Source: Haliotis cracherodii (Eukaryota). From it: a stretch of DNA of 64,000 bases. Positions 5,397 through 58,577 of this stretch are shown one piece after another (positions within the stretch are counted from its first letter, which is position 1; each line of letters begins with the position of its first letter). A program made the translations under genes and the position numbers. A model generated the notes under the pieces. The model was not told the DNA's origin. It saw only the letters and a list, made by a program, of their open reading frames with translations, and made no database searches. The stretch covers positions 22,878,001 to 22,942,000 of the forward strand of contig NW_027266308.1 of the NCBI RefSeq assembly GCF_022045235.1, in the 5' to 3' direction.

Positions 5397-6725
5397 TCAG
5401 TTGCTGTGGCCTGCTGCATCTGTTATAACGAACCTTCTGAGGTAGTTGCAGGTTCTGAGGGAGTCCCACCACTGAGATACCTCACCATCCTCCTCTCCTA
5501 CCTCCTCCAGCGCCATCTGGCGGGCACGCAGCTGCTGAACCATCGGCACCGTCTTCATCCACTTCTCTGCCTTGTAGCGACATCTATCCAGTTCCGTCTT
5601 GCCTTCATCTACTTCCGGTTTACTTTCCTTGTCGCCATCCTGGCCAGGTTTCGCCAAAGAGGACTCTTTCTTCCCGATGGCAAATGTCTGATTCCTTTCT
5701 TTGTTTGCATTCTGCCATTGGCCCGGATCGGTGTATCTCAGTGTCAGGTCATGTGATGCCCGCACCACGAGCGAGGAACGTGCCTGGCCATGCTGCCCTC
5801 TTTGGTAGATCATGGCGGTTTTAATCAGCCTCTCGACTGGCTTCGTTTCGATGGAGTTAGCTTCAAGACGCTTGATTTTGTCAATATATTCAGCTGGATT
5901 TTCTTTCACGTGTCTTAAATACTCCGTCACAGCCTTATGTGCATTCTTATTGAAATCGTCCTCCATCTTCTTCCTAGCCAGTTTAGTTTTTGATGAAACA
6001 TGTTTTGCCTTACCGTCGTTCGCAGCAGGGGAATTAGGCCTTGATCCATCACGAACCTCTCTATCCTGACCATCTTCACTTCGAGATGTGACAATTTCAG
6101 GCAATAACTTTTCCATCTCGTCGCACTTCGAGATGACGGACGCTTTTCTTTCAGAGACAACACTGTCTCTTCTAACGTCCTTCAACTCTCTCTTATTCTG
6201 TTGTCTGACTTCTTTGACTTCTTGTGTTTTGGTAGAAGCGTCTGTATCATACCCAGCATCCTTCAGGGCCTTGTCGTGGCAGCTGAAGAAACTCCGTCGC
6301 GGGAGGAAGGCGCTGAGTTCTTCTTTACTGAACTTAAAGGGCGTGATCCAGTTGTTACTAGACGCCCTCCTGGGGCAGGTGTACATTTCCGATTCCTTCA
6401 GAGATGGTCGTCTCCCTCTCCCACGTTCCTTGTCCGCCATGTTTCTTGCTGAATCTGATGAAGTCATTTCACCATCAAAACGCCTCTGCGTTGACAGTTC
6501 ATACTGGTGTTCCTGGACAGAAATATCACACTGCGATAGGTTACCGCTTGAGCCTCCAGTCAAGTTTGAGAAACTTTGATCCAGATTAATACATGTACCT
6601 AATCTATGCCTTATTATGTTTCTTAGTTTCGCCTCAGTATCTACTTCTGAGAACTGGGGTATGTCCAAGTATGCCCCAAGTCGGCCATCAGTAGGTATAG
6701 CATTTCCACCAGCTATCGTATCCAT
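5397..6725 (-). CDS. Uncharacterised protein, about 442 aa from the first ATG, single long ORF, charged/Ser-rich with a C-terminal WWDSLRTCNYLR segment
   Basis: Uninterrupted non-repetitive ORF of more than 1.3 kb (track 5397..6758; first ATG at 6725) in otherwise stop-rich DNA. No family recognised. The start is uncertain and upstream exons are possible. Confidence 0.7.
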   Translation of the reverse strand: MDTIAGGNAIPTDGRLGAYLDIPQFSEVDTEAKLRNIIRHRLGTCINLDQSFSNLTGGSSGNLSQCDISVQEHQYELSTQRRFDGEMTSSDSARNMADKERGRGRRPSLKESEMYTCPRRASSNNWITPFKFSKEELSAFLPRRSFFSCHDKALKDAGYDTDASTKTQEVKEVRQQNKRELKDVRRDSVVSERKASVISKCDEMEKLLPEIVTSRSEDGQDREVRDGSRPNSPAANDGKAKHVSSKTKLARKKMEDDFNKNAHKAVTEYLRHVKENPAEYIDKIKRLEANSIETKPVERLIKTAMIYQRGQHGQARSSLVVRASHDLTLRYTDPGQWQNANKERNQTFAIGKKESSLAKPGQDGDKESKPEVDEGKTELDRCRYKAEKWMKTVPMVQQLRARQMALEEVGEEDGEVSQWWDSLRTCNYLRRFVITDAAGHSN

Positions 6726-9335
6726 CGTTAGGGCGACCTCAATATCAATACCACACACAATGCCAACTAATATTATCCCTAATGTTTCGACACACTATCA
6801 GTCTTGTCTTTGTAAACTCCTTTGTTATTGGTATGTGTTCATCTGATAGGGAAGAATGTAGTTACTCCGTGTTCACATATCCTTTCACAATGTGGCGTGA
6901 CCAACAAACAGCGCACATCGGTGTTCGCTGGCCCACATCAACCACTATTATACTACAGAGAGGTTTACCTTTCATCTCGTGCAATTACAACACAAGATTT
7001 AAAGAGGTACTCGGGAATCGTTGATAAGCATAAGTAAATAATTGAACAGGCCTATATGCCGCTTTTGGACTTGGTGGAACATCGAAATAATGTCCGGATT
7101 GCAATCCAAATGGTCAACTTATATCAGCACTCGAGCTTGACTTGAAGATTATGTACACAGACATAGGACACTTGAACATGCTGTTGGAATTGCCGATCCA
7201 AAATTGCTTAATGGAATGTCCTTGAGTGAATACCGTTGTCAATAGGCCAGACTGTAATGTGATAAGCTGAATAGATTCGGCAATGCAGTGACTTCCTTCG
7301 CCAACAATATTGTGTCATATTTGTCCACAAAAACACACGTTCCATACACTTTATCCCACAAGGCCTGGTTGTCATTTTGTTTCACCATGCTGTCTGCTCT
7401 GTTACTCGTTTTGTATGATTGTGATTTCTGTGATCTGAGTCCAAGTTGCCTTTGTACGAGATGGTGCCCAGTAATCCATATATCCGACTGTGTAACGGTC
7501 AACTTTTACCCATCGAAACATTCACTCAAAATTTGCCTCTACCAAGTTGTGCCACATCTTGCAGACGGTGATTGTGGTGTAACCGTTTGCTTTACCAAAA
7601 TGATCACACTCCTGTCGTACGTCTACTCCTGGCTTCACACGAGTGCCATCTTGTCCCACTCAACCACAGTGAACAGGTACCTACACCAGCCGAGTGTGTA
7701 CAGGCTAAGATAGGAGCCGTGACTCCAGCTGAAGACAAGAGTTAAGTGGTCAGGGCAATAGCAGTGTTTACATTCCGTGTATTATCTATCCCGGGAGACT
7801 CATGAGCATATCTCACAATAATCTCTCAGTGATTTCAGGCGCACTGATTTTATAGCCACAGTTGAGAGAGTTGTGAATGTACTTGGACCGTGTACAGTGT
7901 TTGGCGAGGGTCATTGAAAGTGATGAGGTCTTTATGATTGCTTGCACGCCATGCTGTGATCAAGGGTGTCGTTATGTGACCACCTTTACTTCTTCCATGA
8001 CACAATACAATGTCTTGTGCTGCTACCGCACGGCCTGTGACAGATTAAGGATACAAAAAACTGCGGCTAGAGTTACCTCGTCTATTGCAGCTCCTTCGTC
8101 CTAAACACCTCCCTTGGAGACCAACACACTCTCCGGTCTGGTCACGATAATGAATGTTTTTTGCAACAGCGTAACTAAGGTTGTATAAAAATATGTTGAC
8201 AAATCGTAGAACTAGTGTTTAGGTCGTGATCTATCCGAAGCTTCAGCCTAAAATCAATGATCGTGACGCCATACTGTGAATGTAGAAGTCAAACAATATT
8301 GTGTGTGTTTTATGTTAACATGCTACTAAGAAAGAGGTAAATAATGTACATTTATCCGACAATTAACCTTACATGTATTCGTCATGTCATGCGGTGATAG
8401 ATTAATTCTAGTAATATAAAAGAATCGGGTTTTCATTTACTTTTTTGAGTAGTATATTTGTAGTTAATTGAAACACAGTGGCACCTGTCTAAAACGGACT
8501 TAATGCAACCGGGATTTAAGTTCGGTTTAGATGGCAGTCTGGATTAGACAGATTCATCCTACTCGCTTCATCACGATGTTTCACTTATAGGCATGTCAGG
8601 TCAATGAGCGAGTGAGTGAGTGAGTATGATTTTACGCCTCTTTTAGCAATATTCCAGCACTATCACGGCTGGTCTTCACACATTGTACACATGTGGGGAA
8701 TCGAACCCAGTTCTACGGCGTGACGAGCGAACGCTTTAACCACTAAGCTATCCCAACCCACCGTAAGCCCCATAGAGCCCTATTCTCATAAACACAAAAT
8801 ACAAGGTTGGTGCACAGAAAGTACACTCATCTGTTGTGTGGGGTAGGGCTGTACCAGGGCTGGCTCACAGAGGGGTGGCAGCAACACCAGCACAGACCGT
8901 TGCCATGTGCTGTATAGTAGTGGTTCTACTGATCAGAGAAATGTTTAACTCCATTAAACCCATTGCGATTTAGGCAAGCATAAATCGATGGAATCGATAC
9001 AAGTTTGTTTACACGTCACATTAGATCTCGTTGACCCGGGGACCCTGCACTAACCATATACCCGTGAGACGCGAGGCGACCCTGGGGTGAGGTGTCCTCG
9101 GGTGTATATGTGACCGGGAATACGTATTATCGTAGAACGCTCAGGGAATACATGTTTTCGTAATGTCAGATTTACTCGGAAAATATACATAATCCTCAGA
9201 TTTGTCAGGTATTATACATATTCCCTGATCCAATACATTCTTTTTACATATTCCCTGAAATTATATAATTTTACAATTTGTTTATGCCATTAGTTACATC
9301 AAAGATAGAAATGTAACCACTTGCTGTTTGATGAA

Positions 9336-12545: not shown

Positions 12546-14021
12546 TCAGCCTAACGTTACGCATGCGCCCGTCCCTGACAAGACTCTCGCGAGACCATTT
12601 CTTTTAACGGCAGCAAACGTGATTCTCTGCCTCCACCTGAAGAGTTGGCGTTCGCGTTCTTTGTCCTCCTCCTTAGAGAGCCTCACCAGCTGCACGGCGT
12701 CACGTGCCGTCACGACGCGTGGGGTCTCGTTCTCTGATTGGTCAGATACCAAGTTATCATCGTCTTTGGCACTGGTGTCAATGTACATGTTCCTCGGCGT
12801 AGCGTCATAACTCTGTCGGTTCTTGTCAATGTACATGTTCCTTGGCGTAGCGTCATAACTCCTGTTCCTGTTCATCATGACTTCACGGGGTGAAGCTACT
12901 GCGTTTAAAAACGATTCCTTATACTTTCTCATGTCTTGACCATCCTGGGACATGGTACATGCAGAGGAATTCCGCCTCTTTCTTGCTTCCACTTTGACGA
13001 GCCTGACGCCATCATGCTCAGGTACATCATCTTTGTCGTCTGCTAGATCCGCGTCCAGAGCAGACCTTCCAGCGGCACCATATATGCCGCCGTTTCTATC
13101 CTGTGCACTCGTCACTTCTACCTTGCACAGTCTCGCTCGTCTGTCTGCCGCTTTACCCATGATTTCACCAACTGTTATACGTTTGGAAGGAAGGCCCAGC
13201 AGCGACTTTTGGATTGCAACCAAATTATTGATCTTCAGATCAGAAGCAAGTGTCGGGGACTTGAAGTTCGTCTTCTGTCTCACGAGCGCTTGTCTTTCTT
13301 TGTAATCCATAGACCGCCTGGCTTCTCTGTTCGCTCCTGAAACAACAGGGGGGCTACCCATCGCAGCATGCTTCAGTACAAACTTCCCCTCTTTGTGTTG
13401 CAGTTTGATGTTCACCTCTCCAGCAAGAAGTTTAGAGAACGCAATTGCATGCATTCTAAGCTTCCGCTCTCGTGTATGCTGGGTATTCTGGTCCATGACC
13501 CCGTCGTAAGGGTCAGACGCCACCGAGTGGTGGACGGAAGAACGTCGGCGTGGGTGGGATAACCGTCTCTTGATGTTGACTTCTTTGGGGTAGTCTGCAA
13601 CGGTGGACGGCCTGTTGGGAGGGTGGGGTACAATGACTGGTTGCCTTTTGGCGCACATTCCTGCAGTCTGTGGCCTGTAACTTCTGGTCACGAAACCCCC
13701 TTTCCTCGACCCCCGGTGGGTAAAGATGGCACTCAGTGTGTCTTCCAGGAGGTCCTCCTTCTCAGCATCTTGCCCAATACGACTTCCAGTCGTCTTCTGA
13801 CTCTGCAACTTTTTCAGCTGCTGTTTAATTACCTCTTCCTCTTGGAAATAGTCGCCCATAGTTACAATGAATTCTTTGTAAATCCTTCCACATTCAGTCT
13901 TATACTGTCTCTGATTGGCAGCAGACGACACAAGGCCACCATCGGGAACAGTTATGTCGAGTCCGAAGTCCCGAGCGTCGTATGACGGCTCAAATGTTGG
14001 TAACTTCACTTCCCCCATCAT
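12546..14021 (-). CDS. Uncharacterised basic protein, 491 aa, single long ORF
   Basis: ATG-initiated 1476-nt ORF, non-repetitive except for a 48-nt internal duplication (SYDATPRNMYID twice). No transposon motifs and no family recognised. Confidence 0.75.
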   Translation of the reverse strand: MMGEVKLPTFEPSYDARDFGLDITVPDGGLVSSAANQRQYKTECGRIYKEFIVTMGDYFQEEEVIKQQLKKLQSQKTTGSRIGQDAEKEDLLEDTLSAIFTHRGSRKGGFVTRSYRPQTAGMCAKRQPVIVPHPPNRPSTVADYPKEVNIKRRLSHPRRRSSVHHSVASDPYDGVMDQNTQHTRERKLRMHAIAFSKLLAGEVNIKLQHKEGKFVLKHAAMGSPPVVSGANREARRSMDYKERQALVRQKTNFKSPTLASDLKINNLVAIQKSLLGLPSKRITVGEIMGKAADRRARLCKVEVTSAQDRNGGIYGAAGRSALDADLADDKDDVPEHDGVRLVKVEARKRRNSSACTMSQDGQDMRKYKESFLNAVASPREVMMNRNRSYDATPRNMYIDKNRQSYDATPRNMYIDTSAKDDDNLVSDQSENETPRVVTARDAVQLVRLSKEEDKERERQLFRWRQRITFAAVKRNGLARVLSGTGACVTLG

Positions 14022-16264
14022 GGCAGCAAATACACAACTAGCTAGGATGTGATGTCAATATATTTTCCTCTTCCATAACGAACAGGTATCAAACGAGAGC
14101 ATATTTCAAATTAGATTACCTCTTCTTTAAAGCGTGATCACTCGTCAGTGTCCTGAATCCAAAGGAGACAAGAACTACCAATTTCTAACATCCAGATCCA
14201 ACACTTCATCAGTCTCCAGCCTCAGAAACAACGAGTCGCACCACCTTCATACACTTAACGCTGTGTTCATAGAATGAAACTGCAGACCCAATACTCAAGT
14301 TCTTCTCAGTGTCGTGGGGCTGAATCGGCCGATCTGAATTTTTCTAACTTCGGTTCATGTCGACTCCTTCACAACGCTCGCCAAATCCAGCTGTTCACCT
14401 GTTCCTTGTCAGCAAGTGTCTGACCATGGTCCACAAAAGTCCACTACTCCATACCATATCCTACCATTGTTCTTGTAAGCGGATTATCAGCTGAAATGCG
14501 ATTACAGCCAAAAAGGAGTAGCTAATCCAATGGTGAGATTTCCCTGTTTCTTCAAATCGGTAGAATATATCTGAGGTTCACTTGACCATTGATTGTTGAA
14601 GCATTATAGACGTCACCGCGAAGGGTTAAAAGCCTTGTTTGTGAGGTTTCTTAGATAACCATTTAAGAGTCAGGGTCAATCTGACCACAGTCCAAAACAA
14701 AGATTAAATGCCAGCCCGTTTTCGTTTGCTTCTAAAAACATGTTGATGTTTGTTATGGTTATCTTGCACAACATGCACCTGGACATGTATGTGTTAGTAC
14801 CATTGCCATTTTAGTCTAATTACTAAATATCAAAGACCTATAAAATATAGGGATGTTGCAGAATTTAATATATATATCAAGATATATCAGTATAAATACG
14901 TTTAATGGAATTACATTATAAGTGAGTGAGTGAGGTTTAACGGCGCTTTGGACAGTATATAAATTCTATCTGGCGTCAAGCTACTGATGGAGAACAATTC
15001 GAAGGGATGCAGGTCTTAGACGTTTACCACTTCGGTGAAACCCACGAGCACGAGTTATGATGCCGAGAGACCGAGTCAGGGCTAAAATGGTTCATAGGTT
15101 TCCGGCACTCTAAGTGGTTTTTTTTCGTCTTGTTTCGTCACACTCAAGTTAACATGTAGCATCGGGGCTTTAACAGTCTTCTAAACACACATTGTAATAA
15201 AAAGCAGTATTTTTGTATGCATATAACTAGATGCAACTGTATATGTGTGGGTTATAGTCAGGTGTATGAAGTGTCAAAACCATAGCAGTTTGTTCTCTCA
15301 GTGAACAGTCCTCCTCGGGAACACCTGGTGCTATTACTGACTTTCATTGATCCATTCATATTCATATTAGTTTCTGCCCAATGGAATCTGTTTCGGCGGA
15401 TAATCGAGGCTGACTATTGATGTTTAATAATTGCAGCATGTAAACTCGAGGCTAGTCTATCAAATGGTTTTATTCAAACAAATCAAAAATAACAATGTTC
15501 CTATGTATGGAGCTATTAGATTAAACGCTTAAGTCGGAATTACAAAGCGTTTGTTATTAAGAGTAACGGTCGGTTGACTTGGGGTTCGAGCGGTCATATG
15601 GATCAGGGTCCCGTTCCACAAATCAATCTTAGCCGTAAGTCGAGCGTAACTTCCATTCTTTCACGTTGATTTATGACAGTTGTGGCGTTAAGGTCGCTTT
15701 GTGGAACCAAGGGGTCATGTGGATCAGATTATACCATTGCCAGGTGTTGTTCATCCCACACTACCAGTACACAAAGCTTAAACCCCCTTCCTTATCCACA
15801 AGAAATCTCCTCCAAAGGCAGACTGCAACATTCCGACTATTCCAAGAACATGTGTTTATGAATCGCTATTAAATAGTGATGGTACCAGGTGGTCGCAAAA
15901 AAGGTGAGCGTATCCTGCCCCACCGGGTGGACCGTCAAAAACACATGCACAGGCAAGTCAATTGTTCATGGGAACAACATCTAGTCCTGATTACTCAGTA
16001 CATTATGCCTCCATTCAATAAAGATGAATGCCCCTTTGGCCATCATAACTTCATTATGAGCCTGATTCGTAAGACACGACGCTATAAATAGCGTCCAATC
16101 AGATGACTCTCAGGAGCGAGATATATTATATGCTCAGTCAGTGATAATAGAAAAGGCGATGGCGACGTCATTTTCGAAACGCACCTACAGTGGGTATTTA
16201 TCACTGACGAAATAAGATACAATACACGGGATAATGATGTACACTTCGGAAGCACGCTGGTTGC

Positions 16265-55561: not shown

Positions 55562-58500
55562 TCATGGATTCTCCTCCCCTAAAGTGTCCGTGGACGCCAG
55601 ACTGGGATAGGGCCACTGTGGATCACTTGTCAGGTACACCTTCTTTGTCAGAGTAAACTGTGGGGCGGGCACCTGTTTATATGATTCCCATTTGTGACCC
55701 AATCGTATCCTTGCTATTTCCTTGTTAACCATCGACAGGCAACTCAAGAGGTCCTGCTGATCACCGTGGCTGTCTAACGTTCTGACCAAAGAAGTGACGA
55801 AATAACTGCCATATTTTGTATTTCTGGCACTGCTGTATCCCTGAACGGTGCTGTGCCCAATGATAATGTCGGCTTCATCAGCAGTTGAAATATCCGATTT
55901 GTCATCCTGAACCAATTCACTCATGAAATTGTCTCCTCTTGATGCTTGGATGAAGAACATTTTGGGTTTGCCTGCTAACGTTGGACACTTTGATGCGTGG
56001 AACATTGACGTAAGATCTTGCACTTTTACTAGTTTACCATCGCTTCCAGCGACACCGTATTCGGTACCATTTGTGAGAATAAAACAAACAAACGCGTCGT
56101 ACTCGCTGTGATCTTGTTCGGCATAGCTCGTTAGTTTGTTCATCATATCGACTGACGTTAAATCTGTTTGTAAATTTATGGTGAACTGGAGTTTAGTGAA
56201 CAATTCACTCAAATTTTCTTCGTCCATGTCCACTCCCCCTCTTCTTGTCGGGAAGCCTTTCTTGAAGCTTTTATTGTTGATAATGACACATATGCCTCTA
56301 GGAACAGCTGTCATCTTGTATTCTGAAACAAAAAACCCACAGAAATATTGCAACAAGGCTTCAAACATTGATACTTCGAAATCTCTGTTTAAAAAAATTG
56401 CCTGTGTAATGTAAAAAAAACCTGTTGGATGTTATCGGAGACAAGCATTTGCACAGTTGGACATAAAACAGAGTCAGTGATTATTGGTGATTTCAGCATC
56501 AGTCCAGAGCTGTCACATGTGTAAACTAAACGGTCGGGTCAAAAAAGTGTAGTCTTAAAAAATGGATTTGACCAAAATATAACCGTGACCAGAACGTTGC
56601 TGGGCTGAAAGGCCCAAAAACAACTCTCATACCCGCATCAAATACATCACCGTCGAATAACCATTCCTTGTTTGTTTCATTTGTAGCCACCATCAAATAT
56701 GGGTGTATACATTCTTTTCCCCGGCAGTTTATAAATAATAAACATTCCAAAACTGTAATGTTCATGTATTGATGTATTATACGCAACTGAACGACAATTT
56801 ACCTTCCTCAAACTTATCTGTTTGGAACGACAGATCACCCATTATATTTTCAATTTCTTCGATCTCAAAAGAATCTGTCAAGCAGCTCTCATATTCACTG
56901 ACACTGCCCTGTGCAGTGAAGACTCTCTCTGGTGTTTCTGGAACACCAGTGTCCTGAACGTCGCGAGTGGGACAAGAACAGTTCAAAGTGTCGCACTCCT
57001 GTTGTTTAAATTCCTTGTGTAGATCAGGATACTTTTTAGCCATGGCAGCAATGATGTCTTTGTCGGGCACCTCCTTCCTAAGCTCTGTCCATTTGGTATT
57101 GTTGGACATTCCAGAACTCTTGAGGTCGCCAAACAGAGGAATTTCTATAATCTTTTGTTGTAGCAAAGGAGTTGCCACTCTTTTGAGCTGTCAGTGTGAA
57201 AACAGATATTTCTTTAGAGACTAAAGGTGTAGTCATGTTTAGATAAATGTAACACTTTTAATAATCACGAAAAACAAATTTCACTATGTACTATATTTTA
57301 TGTATCAGCCGTTCAATAACATTACAGAATCTGTTCAAAATGTTCATCATAATTATTTTAGCTGATGGTCACCTATTTGATGAGGGCCCAGGAGTAGTAT
57401 GTGCTAGATGTTGAGAATAGTGCAGTGAATGGGGATTTTAAAAGTAAATGATAGGGAATTATGGCGACATCTACATTACAAGTGACATAAACGATTTTCT
57501 TGTTGGAAACCTGAATATTGAAACAGTCAATTCCTTTTATACGAATACCTTCCTCACCTGCACATATTTCCTGGCTCTACAGGCCACACACTGTTCATCC
57601 TCATGCTCCTCCTCAAGTCTGTCCAACTCTGAGATCAGCGCCTCCGCTACGTGAGGGTGATCCTTCCTCAGGGCAGGCAGCAGGAGGCGGTGGAAGTCCT
57701 CAAAAGACAGACGCCCCACGATGTAGCTGAAGAACTCCTCGTTCTGACCTCTCCTCGAGTCTTTACCTCTGATACTGTCCTTGTCTGACACGGACATCAC
57801 ATCCGATGCTAGAAGGTCATCAATGATGCTGGATTTGAAGAGTTCAAGGTCACTTGTGAGCAAAGTGTAGCAGTTCCTCAGAGCCTCTCTGTGGATATGA
57901 CTAACCTTTGACCTCTTTTCTGTTAAATGAAAAAACAACAACCCAAAACCAAAGTAATAAGGTATTCATTAGTAATGCGGTATTTATATCATTTGGCACA
58001 TTGTCTCAGTTTAATTCATGTCTTGCTGGTAATGTGATGAATTGACATTTTGCATCTTTCATAAAATAACATTTTCGCAATGACTACTAGGGTTGATACA
58101 TGAGAAAGGCTGCACACGAAAAAGTAGAAAAAATCAACTTCTGAAATCCTTCCTGTTAACCTCTCCACCATGTCTCCACATCTTATAATGACTTTTTTTA
58201 GACACCAGAACCTTGACAAAAAACACATGTCTATGAGTTAGTGGAGGTTAAGATATCAGCTGAATTATCATCTATTCATTAACAGTATTTGATGTAAAAA
58301 ACAAACCAAAGGAGTCTTTTGTGTGGAATCTTGAGTTGATCTGTTTTTCCATCCGGGTTATCGTACTACGCATCGTCTGGGAATTCTGCTCGCCTGTCAC
58401 TTGATGTAGCTTCTGCATATACGTCCTGAACCGCGTCTCCACCTCCGCCAGTGTCTGTGACATCGTCTCCAGCAGGAACTGCTCGACCTCAGACACTCGC

Positions 58501-58577
58501 TCCTCGTCATCGGTCGTCTCCACCAGACTCCGGACAAACTCCTTTGCATAAGGCAAGCGTCTCTTCTCCGTCGTCAT
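55562..58577 (-). CDS. Initiator-type caspase-family protein with CARD-like prodomain; predicted catalytically inactive (about 592 aa)
   Basis: Exons 58307-58577, 57558-57919, 56803-57187, 55562-56322 join in phase with GT-AG junctions. The last exon is a peptidase C14 domain (PRGICVIINN, FVCFILTNG, CPTLAGKPKMFFIQASRG, ADIIIGHST..GYSSARN..GSYFV, KQVP). Exon 2 has a CARD-like pattern (HREALRN..L..DL....IIDDLLA.DV...DKD.I). Confidence 0.88.
56527..56733. mobile_element. TA-flanked MITE family (other copies at 1-190 and about 4027-4718)
   Basis: Shared internal sequence and terminus gtatac(a/t)ttcttt(t)(c/g)ccggcagtttata among three loci; inverted terminus at about 4027-4050. Confidence 0.7.

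What the first reader, a model, noticed from the sequence alone, without database searches (positions are those of the whole stretch)
55562..56322. Intact caspase-family gene with both catalytic residues replaced (pseudo-caspase)
Established: caspases use His in (S/T)HG and Cys in QACxG. Seen: this protein has LTNG (AAT, 56069-56071) and QASRG (TCA, 55940-55942). TCA is two substitutions from any Cys codon, so a single base error is unlikely. The frame, splice sites, substrate-pocket arginines (PTRRG, SSARN) and prodomain are all preserved. Inference: a c-FLIP-like decoy or scaffold regulator, but with a CARD-type rather than DED prodomain, which would be an independently evolved apoptosis/immune regulator.
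Basis: partly seen in the sequence, partly recalled or inferred. Interest (0 to 1): 0.72.

Follow-up and report, generated by a model that had tools for sequence, protein, structure and literature searches.

The report
Abalone dead caspase with double CARD
Abalones keep and splice a cell-death protease gene that has lost both cutting residues and carries an unusual, likely zinc-clasped double docking domain; it likely regulates or decoys rather than cuts, a new variant of a known trick.

Summary
The four-exon gene (592 aa) has Asn for the catalytic His and Ser for the Cys. Both changes recur in orthologs labelled H. rufescens, H. discus hannai and H. asinina (96-84% identical) and in four public runs. 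Contigs from public runs are spliced at all three introns. It is neither an error nor a young pseudogene.

It is one of ten dead caspase loci in this genome. They form one clade that likely arose from a retroposed caspase-8 domain (0 of 18 rows keep the Cys). The prodomain is not a plain CARD. It has a three-helix exon, then CARD-CxxC-CARD-CxC, with four nearly invariant cysteines (likely zinc). That module occurs without caspase in limpet and bivalves, and on abalone TIR and MLLE proteins. The Asp-binding pocket and dimer strand are intact.

The best reading is a non-cutting caspase modulator or trap at a CARD platform; binding is untested. It is not a c-FLIP (no DEDs). Dead caspases, including a mussel CARD one, are already in print. 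I found no description of the tandem-CARD module or this clade. New variant of a known kind.

The parts
58307..58577 (-). Coding exon 1: about 90-residue helical domain of no known family, shared by the abalone-type genes that carry the tandem-CARD module
   Evidence: Gene model. Own profile finds it in 10 frames of fetched loci and in 22 of 71 module proteins with over 40 residues before the module, 14 of them seeds. No PDB match under E 0.05, no Pfam match over cut-off.
57558..57919 (-). Coding exon 2: CARD1 and the CxxC motif (Cys201 57588-57590, Cys204 57579-57581)
   Evidence: Pfam CARD E 1.7e-4, under the cut-off. AF2 model pLDDT 94. VIA-align Z 13.5, rmsd 1.8 over 91 residues to Apaf-1 CARD.
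56803..57187 (-). Coding exon 3: CARD2, the CxC motif (Cys281 56978-56980, Cys283 56972-56974) and an acidic linker
   Evidence: Second half of the paralog module L051 folded alone (pLDDT 84.5) matches CARDs, best Z 8.8, rmsd 2.2 over 77 residues. Pfam CARD hits 5 of 16 members at E<=1, best 2.9e-5. hhalign to CARD1 E 3.4e-4, probability only 38%.
55562..56322 (-). Coding exon 4: whole caspase-like domain (p20 and p10) in one exon, with stop codon
   Evidence: Pfam PF00656 176 bits. The family profile's best PDB hits are caspase-8, E 3.5e-72.
56069..56071 (-). Asn424 in place of the catalytic His
   Evidence: silent variant in run X17.
55940..55942 (-). Ser467 in place of the catalytic Cys
   Evidence: unchanged in 4 of 4 runs.
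56240..56242 (-). Arg367, S1-pocket arginine (Arg179 in caspase-1 numbering)
   Evidence: Kept in 4 of 4 orthologs.
55946..55948 (-). Gln465, S1-pocket glutamine (Gln283)
   Evidence: Kept in 4 of 4 orthologs.
55823..55831 (-). Ser504 and Arg506, pocket residues (Ser339, Arg341)
   Evidence: Kept in 4 of 4 orthologs.

Best explanation
This is a spliced, conserved abalone gene whose caspase domain lacks both catalytic residues and likely came from a retroposed caspase-8; it likely acts as a non-cutting modulator that would dock on CARD platforms through a tandem CARD predicted to be zinc-clasped and there would pair with active caspases or trap their Asp-bearing targets. Shown: gene structure, spliced contigs in public runs, loss of His and Cys in four species, intact S1 residues and dimer strand, two CARD-like folds in predicted models, four conserved cysteines, and one clade of dead paralogs. 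Inferred: no protease activity (from the established need for the His/Cys dyad), retroposition, zinc binding, platform recruitment, heterodimer or trap action, and a role in immunity or apoptosis.
For: Asn/Ser are in 4 of 4 orthologs down to 82% domain identity. Spliced joints appear in 4, 4 and 3 of 4 runs from four studies. All 10 listed indels lie outside the coding exons. Three events in 390 intron bases predict 5.9 in exon 4; none are seen, P 0.003 (Fisher 0.039). R179, Q283, S339 and R341 are kept in 4 of 4 orthologs and in the QAAQG/QGAQG and QADRG lineages. The dimer strand KQVPAPQFTLTKKVYL is close to active caspase-8. The dead rows form one clade, 92/98, in 94% of bootstrap trees. 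They group with mollusc DED caspase-8 at 75/88; grouping with effector-like caspases is rejected, p-AU 0.011. The caspase domain is one exon in dead paralogs but four pieces in the genome's three DED caspase-8 genes. The cysteine columns are kept in 138, 137, 131 and 128 of 140 full-length module rows.
Against: No binding or activity data. Without DEDs there is no obvious route to the caspase-8 platform. Point-change selection on the dead domain is not shown: 15 replacement to 8 silent differences against run X1 (23 of 24 listed), pN/pS 0.53, P 0.11 against neutrality. The domain diverges faster than CARD1 among orthologs (82% against 95% for P0002). Other lineages have lost the pocket. At least two paralogs here have a frame break in the caspase domain. 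The intron contig used for the indel rate is a single record. The runs are only guessed to be RNA and come mostly from related organisms. The cysteine counts lean towards the profile that found the rows.
Confidence: 0.5

Rival explanations
1. Integrated decoy: the three-helix plus tandem-CARD cassette is a signalling unit, and the dead caspase is bait for pathogen caspase inhibitors or proteases; binding the bait would release the CARDs.
For: The same cassette carries different C-terminal domains: caspase, TIR (P0035, L043), MLLE (P0037) or none. Caspase-bearing and caspase-free modules are interleaved in a quick tree. There is birth and death of paralogs. The pocket is intact. p10 varies more than p20 among three close orthologs, 13 of 84 against 7 of 129, p 0.017, a post hoc test. 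The concept is described for NLRP1 and CARD8 (PMC11781737, passages).
Against: No sign of dN/dS above 1. No significant cluster of variable sites (permutation p 0.19). No pathogen partner identified.
Confidence: 0.2
2. The tandem-CARD adaptor does the work, and the caspase domain is a folded but slowly decaying passenger under weak constraint.
For: 144 of the 150 best module hits carry no caspase domain. pN/pS 0.53 is not different from neutral. Pocket loss and frame breaks occur in paralogs.
Against: The pocket residues, dimer strand and reading frame are kept across four species. There are no coding indels among 10 listed. The domain is retained in seven or more paralog lineages.
Confidence: 0.22
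3. Young pseudogene, or an assembly error at the two codons.
For: The tandem paralog 15 kb away is frameshifted here but whole in P0004, so family members do die.
Against: The same two residues are in four species, contigs are spliced, and there is a silent change inside the Asn codon.
Confidence: 0.02
4. Residual or rewired hydrolase using Ser467 as nucleophile.
For: The Ser sits at the nucleophile position with an intact pocket, and the related P0003 keeps His with Ser.
Against: There is no His base in this lineage. Other lineages have Ala, Asp, Gly or Pro there. Cys-to-Ser caspase mutants are inactive (recalled).
Confidence: 0.03

Closest known systems
c-FLIP(L) (CFLAR), vertebrate pseudo-caspase
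   Same: Caspase-8-related domain without the His/Cys dyad behind a tandem death-fold prodomain.
   Different: c-FLIP has tandem DEDs and Arg315/Tyr360 replacements (PMC7586951, passages). This protein has tandem CARDs, Asn/Ser and an intact S1 pocket, and belongs to a ten-locus family.
Mytilus galloprovincialis 'caspase-2' and dyad-less bivalve caspases
   Same: A mollusc CARD-bearing caspase without His/Cys, proposed as a CLARP (c-FLIP)-like regulator (PMC3037946, passages; PMC7836458, section 7 part 1). Dyad loss is called ubiquitous in bivalves (PMC10967218, passages).
   Different: The mussel protein is placed with caspase-2/9, has one reported CARD and has lost the pocket residues. This one is caspase-8-like, has two CARDs with four cysteines and keeps the pocket.
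Dipteran caspase-like decoy molecules
   Same: Inactive duplicates proposed to regulate active caspases (mentioned in PMC3141678, passage; the original paper was not held).
   Different: A long death-fold prodomain and an origin by domain fusion.
RIG-I/MDA5 tandem CARDs
   Same: Two CARD folds in a row.
   Different: No helicase among 80 scanned module proteins. A CxxC/CxC frame around CARD2. The two-domain superposition is poor, rmsd about 18, though the model's domain orientation is uncertain (pTM 0.66).
Abalone records named 'caspase-8' (AYK02334.1, WLG17492.1)
   Same: WLG17492.1 (P0022) is the ortholog, 95% identical. AYK02334.1 (P0005) is a paralog of the clade.
   Different: They are named as ordinary caspase-8, yet both lack the Cys. 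AYK02334.1 is listed as a CARD caspase in the supplement of PMC11463336. 'Inactive' and 'c-FLIP' do not occur in its main text.

Membership tests
Caspase (peptidase C14A) | p20/p10 caspase domain | tested here: met
   Pfam PF00656 176 bits over 1-233 of 233.
Caspase (peptidase C14A) | His/Cys catalytic dyad | tested here: not met
   Asn and Ser. 0 of 18 clade rows keep the Cys; 23 of 23 other rows keep both residues.
Caspase (peptidase C14A) | S1 pocket Arg179, Gln283, Arg341 (and Ser339) | tested here: met
   4 of 4 orthologs, by alignment.
Caspase (peptidase C14A) | Asp cleavage site between the subunits | tested here: inconclusive
   VQDD/IQDD follows the pentapeptide in the four orthologs but not in most paralogs; cleavage untested.
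c-FLIP (CFLAR) | Tandem DED prodomain | tested here: not met
   Both domains match CARDs best (Z 13.5 and 8.8); DED chains score Z 5.8 or less for domain 2. The own-genome DED search gave no match on this contig.
c-FLIP (CFLAR) | Arg/Tyr replacement of the dyad | tested here: not met
   Asn/Ser here, against R315/Y360.
c-FLIP (CFLAR) | Descent from a caspase-8 domain | tested here: inconclusive
   Groups with mollusc DED caspase-8 at 75/88, not starred; best PDB hits are caspase-8. No c-FLIP sequence was in the tree.
c-FLIP (CFLAR) | Heterodimer with caspase-8 that tunes its activity | not tested
   The dimer strand is conserved in sequence only.
CARD initiator caspases (caspase-2/Y) | CARD prodomain | tested here: met
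CARD initiator caspases (caspase-2/Y) | Catalytic domain in the caspase-2/Y clade | tested here: inconclusive
   No named caspase-2 was in the tree. Grouping with two abalone QSCRG caspases of unknown prodomain gives p-AU 0.058.
RIG-I-like receptors | Helicase and CTD behind the tandem CARD | tested here: not met
   Absent in this protein and in 80 of 80 module proteins scanned at E 1e-5 (80 of 150 hits were given).
Cys4 zinc site | Four cysteines that meet and bind zinc | not testable with these tools

The most novel reading that the evidence does not exclude
Abalones have an integrated-decoy system. A molluscan zinc-clasped tandem-CARD signalling module, never described as such, is fused to interchangeable bait domains. 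A family of dead caspase-8 copies with intact Asp pockets senses pathogen caspase inhibitors.
Probability: 0.15. Interest if true: 0.8.

Novelty: new variant of a known kind. Interest (0 to 1): 0.5.

Why it matters
If true, it is an independent route to caspase-8 pseudoenzymes, by fusion to a different death-fold module, and it has expanded into a family. It also defines a widespread, uncharacterised molluscan tandem-CARD module (537 clusters at E<=0.001, some of them plain CARD proteins), a candidate adaptor in animals reported to lack MAVS (PMC11103948, passages). In practice, at least two abalone records named caspase-8 lack the catalytic Cys, so expression studies built on them would not be measuring a protease.

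Tried and rejected
Complex prediction: four module copies with zinc gave no verdict (score 0.00); this is no evidence either way.

MAVS idea: the idea that the module proteins are MAVS-like membrane adaptors found little support. Only 5 of 150 have a segment over 1.9 mean hydropathy, and 2 of these lie near the C-terminus.

MLKL idea: the idea that exon 1 is an MLKL-like bundle was not supported by profile searches, which gave only weak coiled-coil hits. It was not folded, so it is not excluded.

Other searches: ESM Atlas gave only sub-0.9 CARD leads. No run was on record as RNA. Earlier findings of the scan returned nothing. The own genome could not be searched with the module profile, so its copy number there is a lower bound from two single-exon queries.

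Trees: one origin with the single-exon Ras-caspase fusions was marginally rejected, p-AU 0.040.

Literature: searches listed no paper on this gene, clade or module. I saw listings only, apart from the papers cited, and most subscription journals are missing. The H. diversicolor caspase cloning paper (PMID 20045058) was not held and may note the motif. Only the supplement of PMC11463336 was searched; other supplements may list dead abalone caspases.

Full report
Observation. The two codons are as described and fall on the catalytic His and Cys columns of caspase-3. A search over splice positions gave one GT-AG model: exons 58307-58577, 57558-57919, 56803-57187 and 55562-56322 on the minus strand. 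It gives 592 aa, identical to record P0021, which its source labels caspase-8-like of Haliotis cracherodii.

Real and conserved. Orthologs labelled H. rufescens (P0001), H. discus hannai (P0022) and H. asinina (P0002) have LTNG and QAS(R/I)G at 94, 92 and 82% domain identity. Contigs of four public runs from four studies skip the introns at CT..AC ends in 4 of 4 and 4 of 4 runs. The third joint is seen in 3 of 4 runs, shifted in register by what reads as a silent change beside it. The runs are only guessed to be RNA and are mostly 90-99% alike, so they show splicing in relatives. Four runs laid on the active-site stretch keep Ser and Asn, one with a silent Asn codon change. TCA is one replacement plus one silent step from a Cys codon, and another lineage has TCC; I infer an old change.

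Selection. All 10 listed indels lie outside the coding exons. At the intron rate of one record, 5.9 would be expected in exon 4 (P 0.003). Point changes are less clear: 15 replacement and 8 silent against run X1, pN/pS 0.53, P 0.11 (classified by hand; arithmetic). The frame is protected, but constraint on the dead domain looks looser than on CARD1.

A family. The genome search gave 45 caspase matches. Ten loci have the tandem-CARD module upstream and no catalytic Cys: this gene, a tandem copy 15 kb on, four on C1 and four on C56. The Cys column holds Ser, Ala, Asp, Gly or Pro, and the His is kept in some lineages. In a 41-row tree the 18 dead rows are one side of a branch, 92/98, in 94% of bootstrap trees (a 63-row mixture-model tree also gave 92/98). 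0 of 18 keep the Cys; 23 of 23 others keep both residues. The tandem copy is frameshifted here but whole in P0004, and L051 also changes frame.

Origin. The clade sits with mollusc DED caspase-8 at 75/88. Grouping with effector-like caspases is rejected (p-AU 0.011), and grouping with two QSCRG caspases is not (0.058). The family profile's best solved relatives are caspase-8. The genome has three DED caspase-8 genes with intact dyads whose domain lies in four pieces, whereas the dead domains are single exons. I infer a retroposed caspase-8 piece captured behind the CARD cassette. Among the best 150 module hits, 6 carry a caspase domain and all 6 lack the Cys. Four are labelled Haliotis and two group with this genome's loci. 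The full-length profile search found the fusion only in Haliotis records (7 of 31 hits), with limited sensitivity; 387 weaker module hits were not seen.

Prodomain. Exon 1 is a helical domain of no known family, shared by abalone-type members. Then comes CARD-CxxC-CARD-CxC. AF2 gives mean pLDDT 94 and pTM 0.66. Domain 1 matches Apaf-1 CARD (Z 13.5, rmsd 1.8, 91 residues). Domain 2, folded from paralog L051, matches CARDs with a modest best Z of 8.8 (rmsd 2.2, 77 residues), and the top 30 rows are CARD-containing or CARD-like chains. A profile search found 537 clusters at E<=0.001. Of 179 domain rows from 154 proteins, 140 were full length; the four cysteines are kept in 138, 137, 131 and 128. 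This suggests a zinc site closing both ends of CARD2; it is inferred, not measured. Named carriers without a caspase domain include Patella, Gigantopelta, Sinanodonta, Dreissena and Mercenaria (5 of 10 looked up). In abalone the module also heads a TIR protein, in two copies, and an MLLE protein.

Mechanism. By established caspase chemistry it cannot cut. It keeps R179, Q283, S339, R341 and the dimer strand in 4 of 4 orthologs, which is the anatomy of a substrate trap or a dimer partner. I put a non-cutting modulator at a CARD platform at 0.5, a passenger domain on a CARD adaptor at 0.22, an integrated decoy at 0.2, residual activity at 0.03, and pseudogene or error at 0.02. No interaction was shown.

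Comparison. It may work like c-FLIP but is not one: no DEDs and different replacements. A mussel CARD caspase without the pentapeptide was proposed as a CLARP-like regulator (PMC3037946, passages). Dyad loss is reported across bivalves (PMC7836458, passages and section 7 part 1; PMC10967218, passages). A family member was listed as an ordinary CARD caspase in PMC11463336 (passages, section 5 part 1 and supplement rows). PMC11874512 and PMC11543851 (passages) showed nothing on this module. My searches listed no description of the cysteine-framed tandem CARD or of this clade.

Verdict. A real, conserved pseudo-caspase; a new variant of a known kind. The dead active site alone is ordinary for molluscs. 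The tandem-CARD module, the all-dead clade and the kept pocket are what is new. Interest 0.5.

Noticed in passing
L037:3554-4930, L038:2194-2673, L040:6415-7830, L017:1480-2610 (G000 C23, C12, C13): Ras/Roc-type small GTPase domains fused in one open frame to caspase domains (Pfam). L004, L005 and L007 keep His and Cys. A ROC-caspase is reported for one annelid in PMC11463336.
   Followed up: partly
L043:286-4819 (G000 C1) and P0035: A gene with the helical exon, two tandem-CARD modules and a C-terminal TIR domain: a possible TIR-to-CARD adaptor.
   Followed up: partly
L008, L010, L011, L014 (G000 C56): Four tandem dead paralogs with a Cys one column before the catalytic Cys (PCGQG); three also have a His two columns before the catalytic His (IHTE). 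Chance or a shifted dyad; untested.
   Followed up: no
L031:2884-9176, just beyond the window: A tandem paralog with a frame break near the pentapeptide, plus a separate 92% copy of the second half of exon 2.
   Followed up: partly
P0037, P0053, P0100: The module joined to MLLE (Pfam), to a tail that looks L7Ae/SBP2-like by eye only (no Pfam hit at E 0.01), and to P2RX7_C.
   Followed up: no
L080 (G000 C3:26135260-26138913): Two DED exons with no caspase match in the 40 kb fetched: a possible short FLIP- or DEDD-like gene.
   Followed up: partly
window 16000-48000: Repeated aldose 1-epimerase exons, apparently a tandem gene array (two exons confirmed by Pfam).
   Followed up: partly
window 5397-6794 and 12546-14054 (-): Long open frames of 465 and 502 aa with no Pfam match at E 1.
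   Followed up: no
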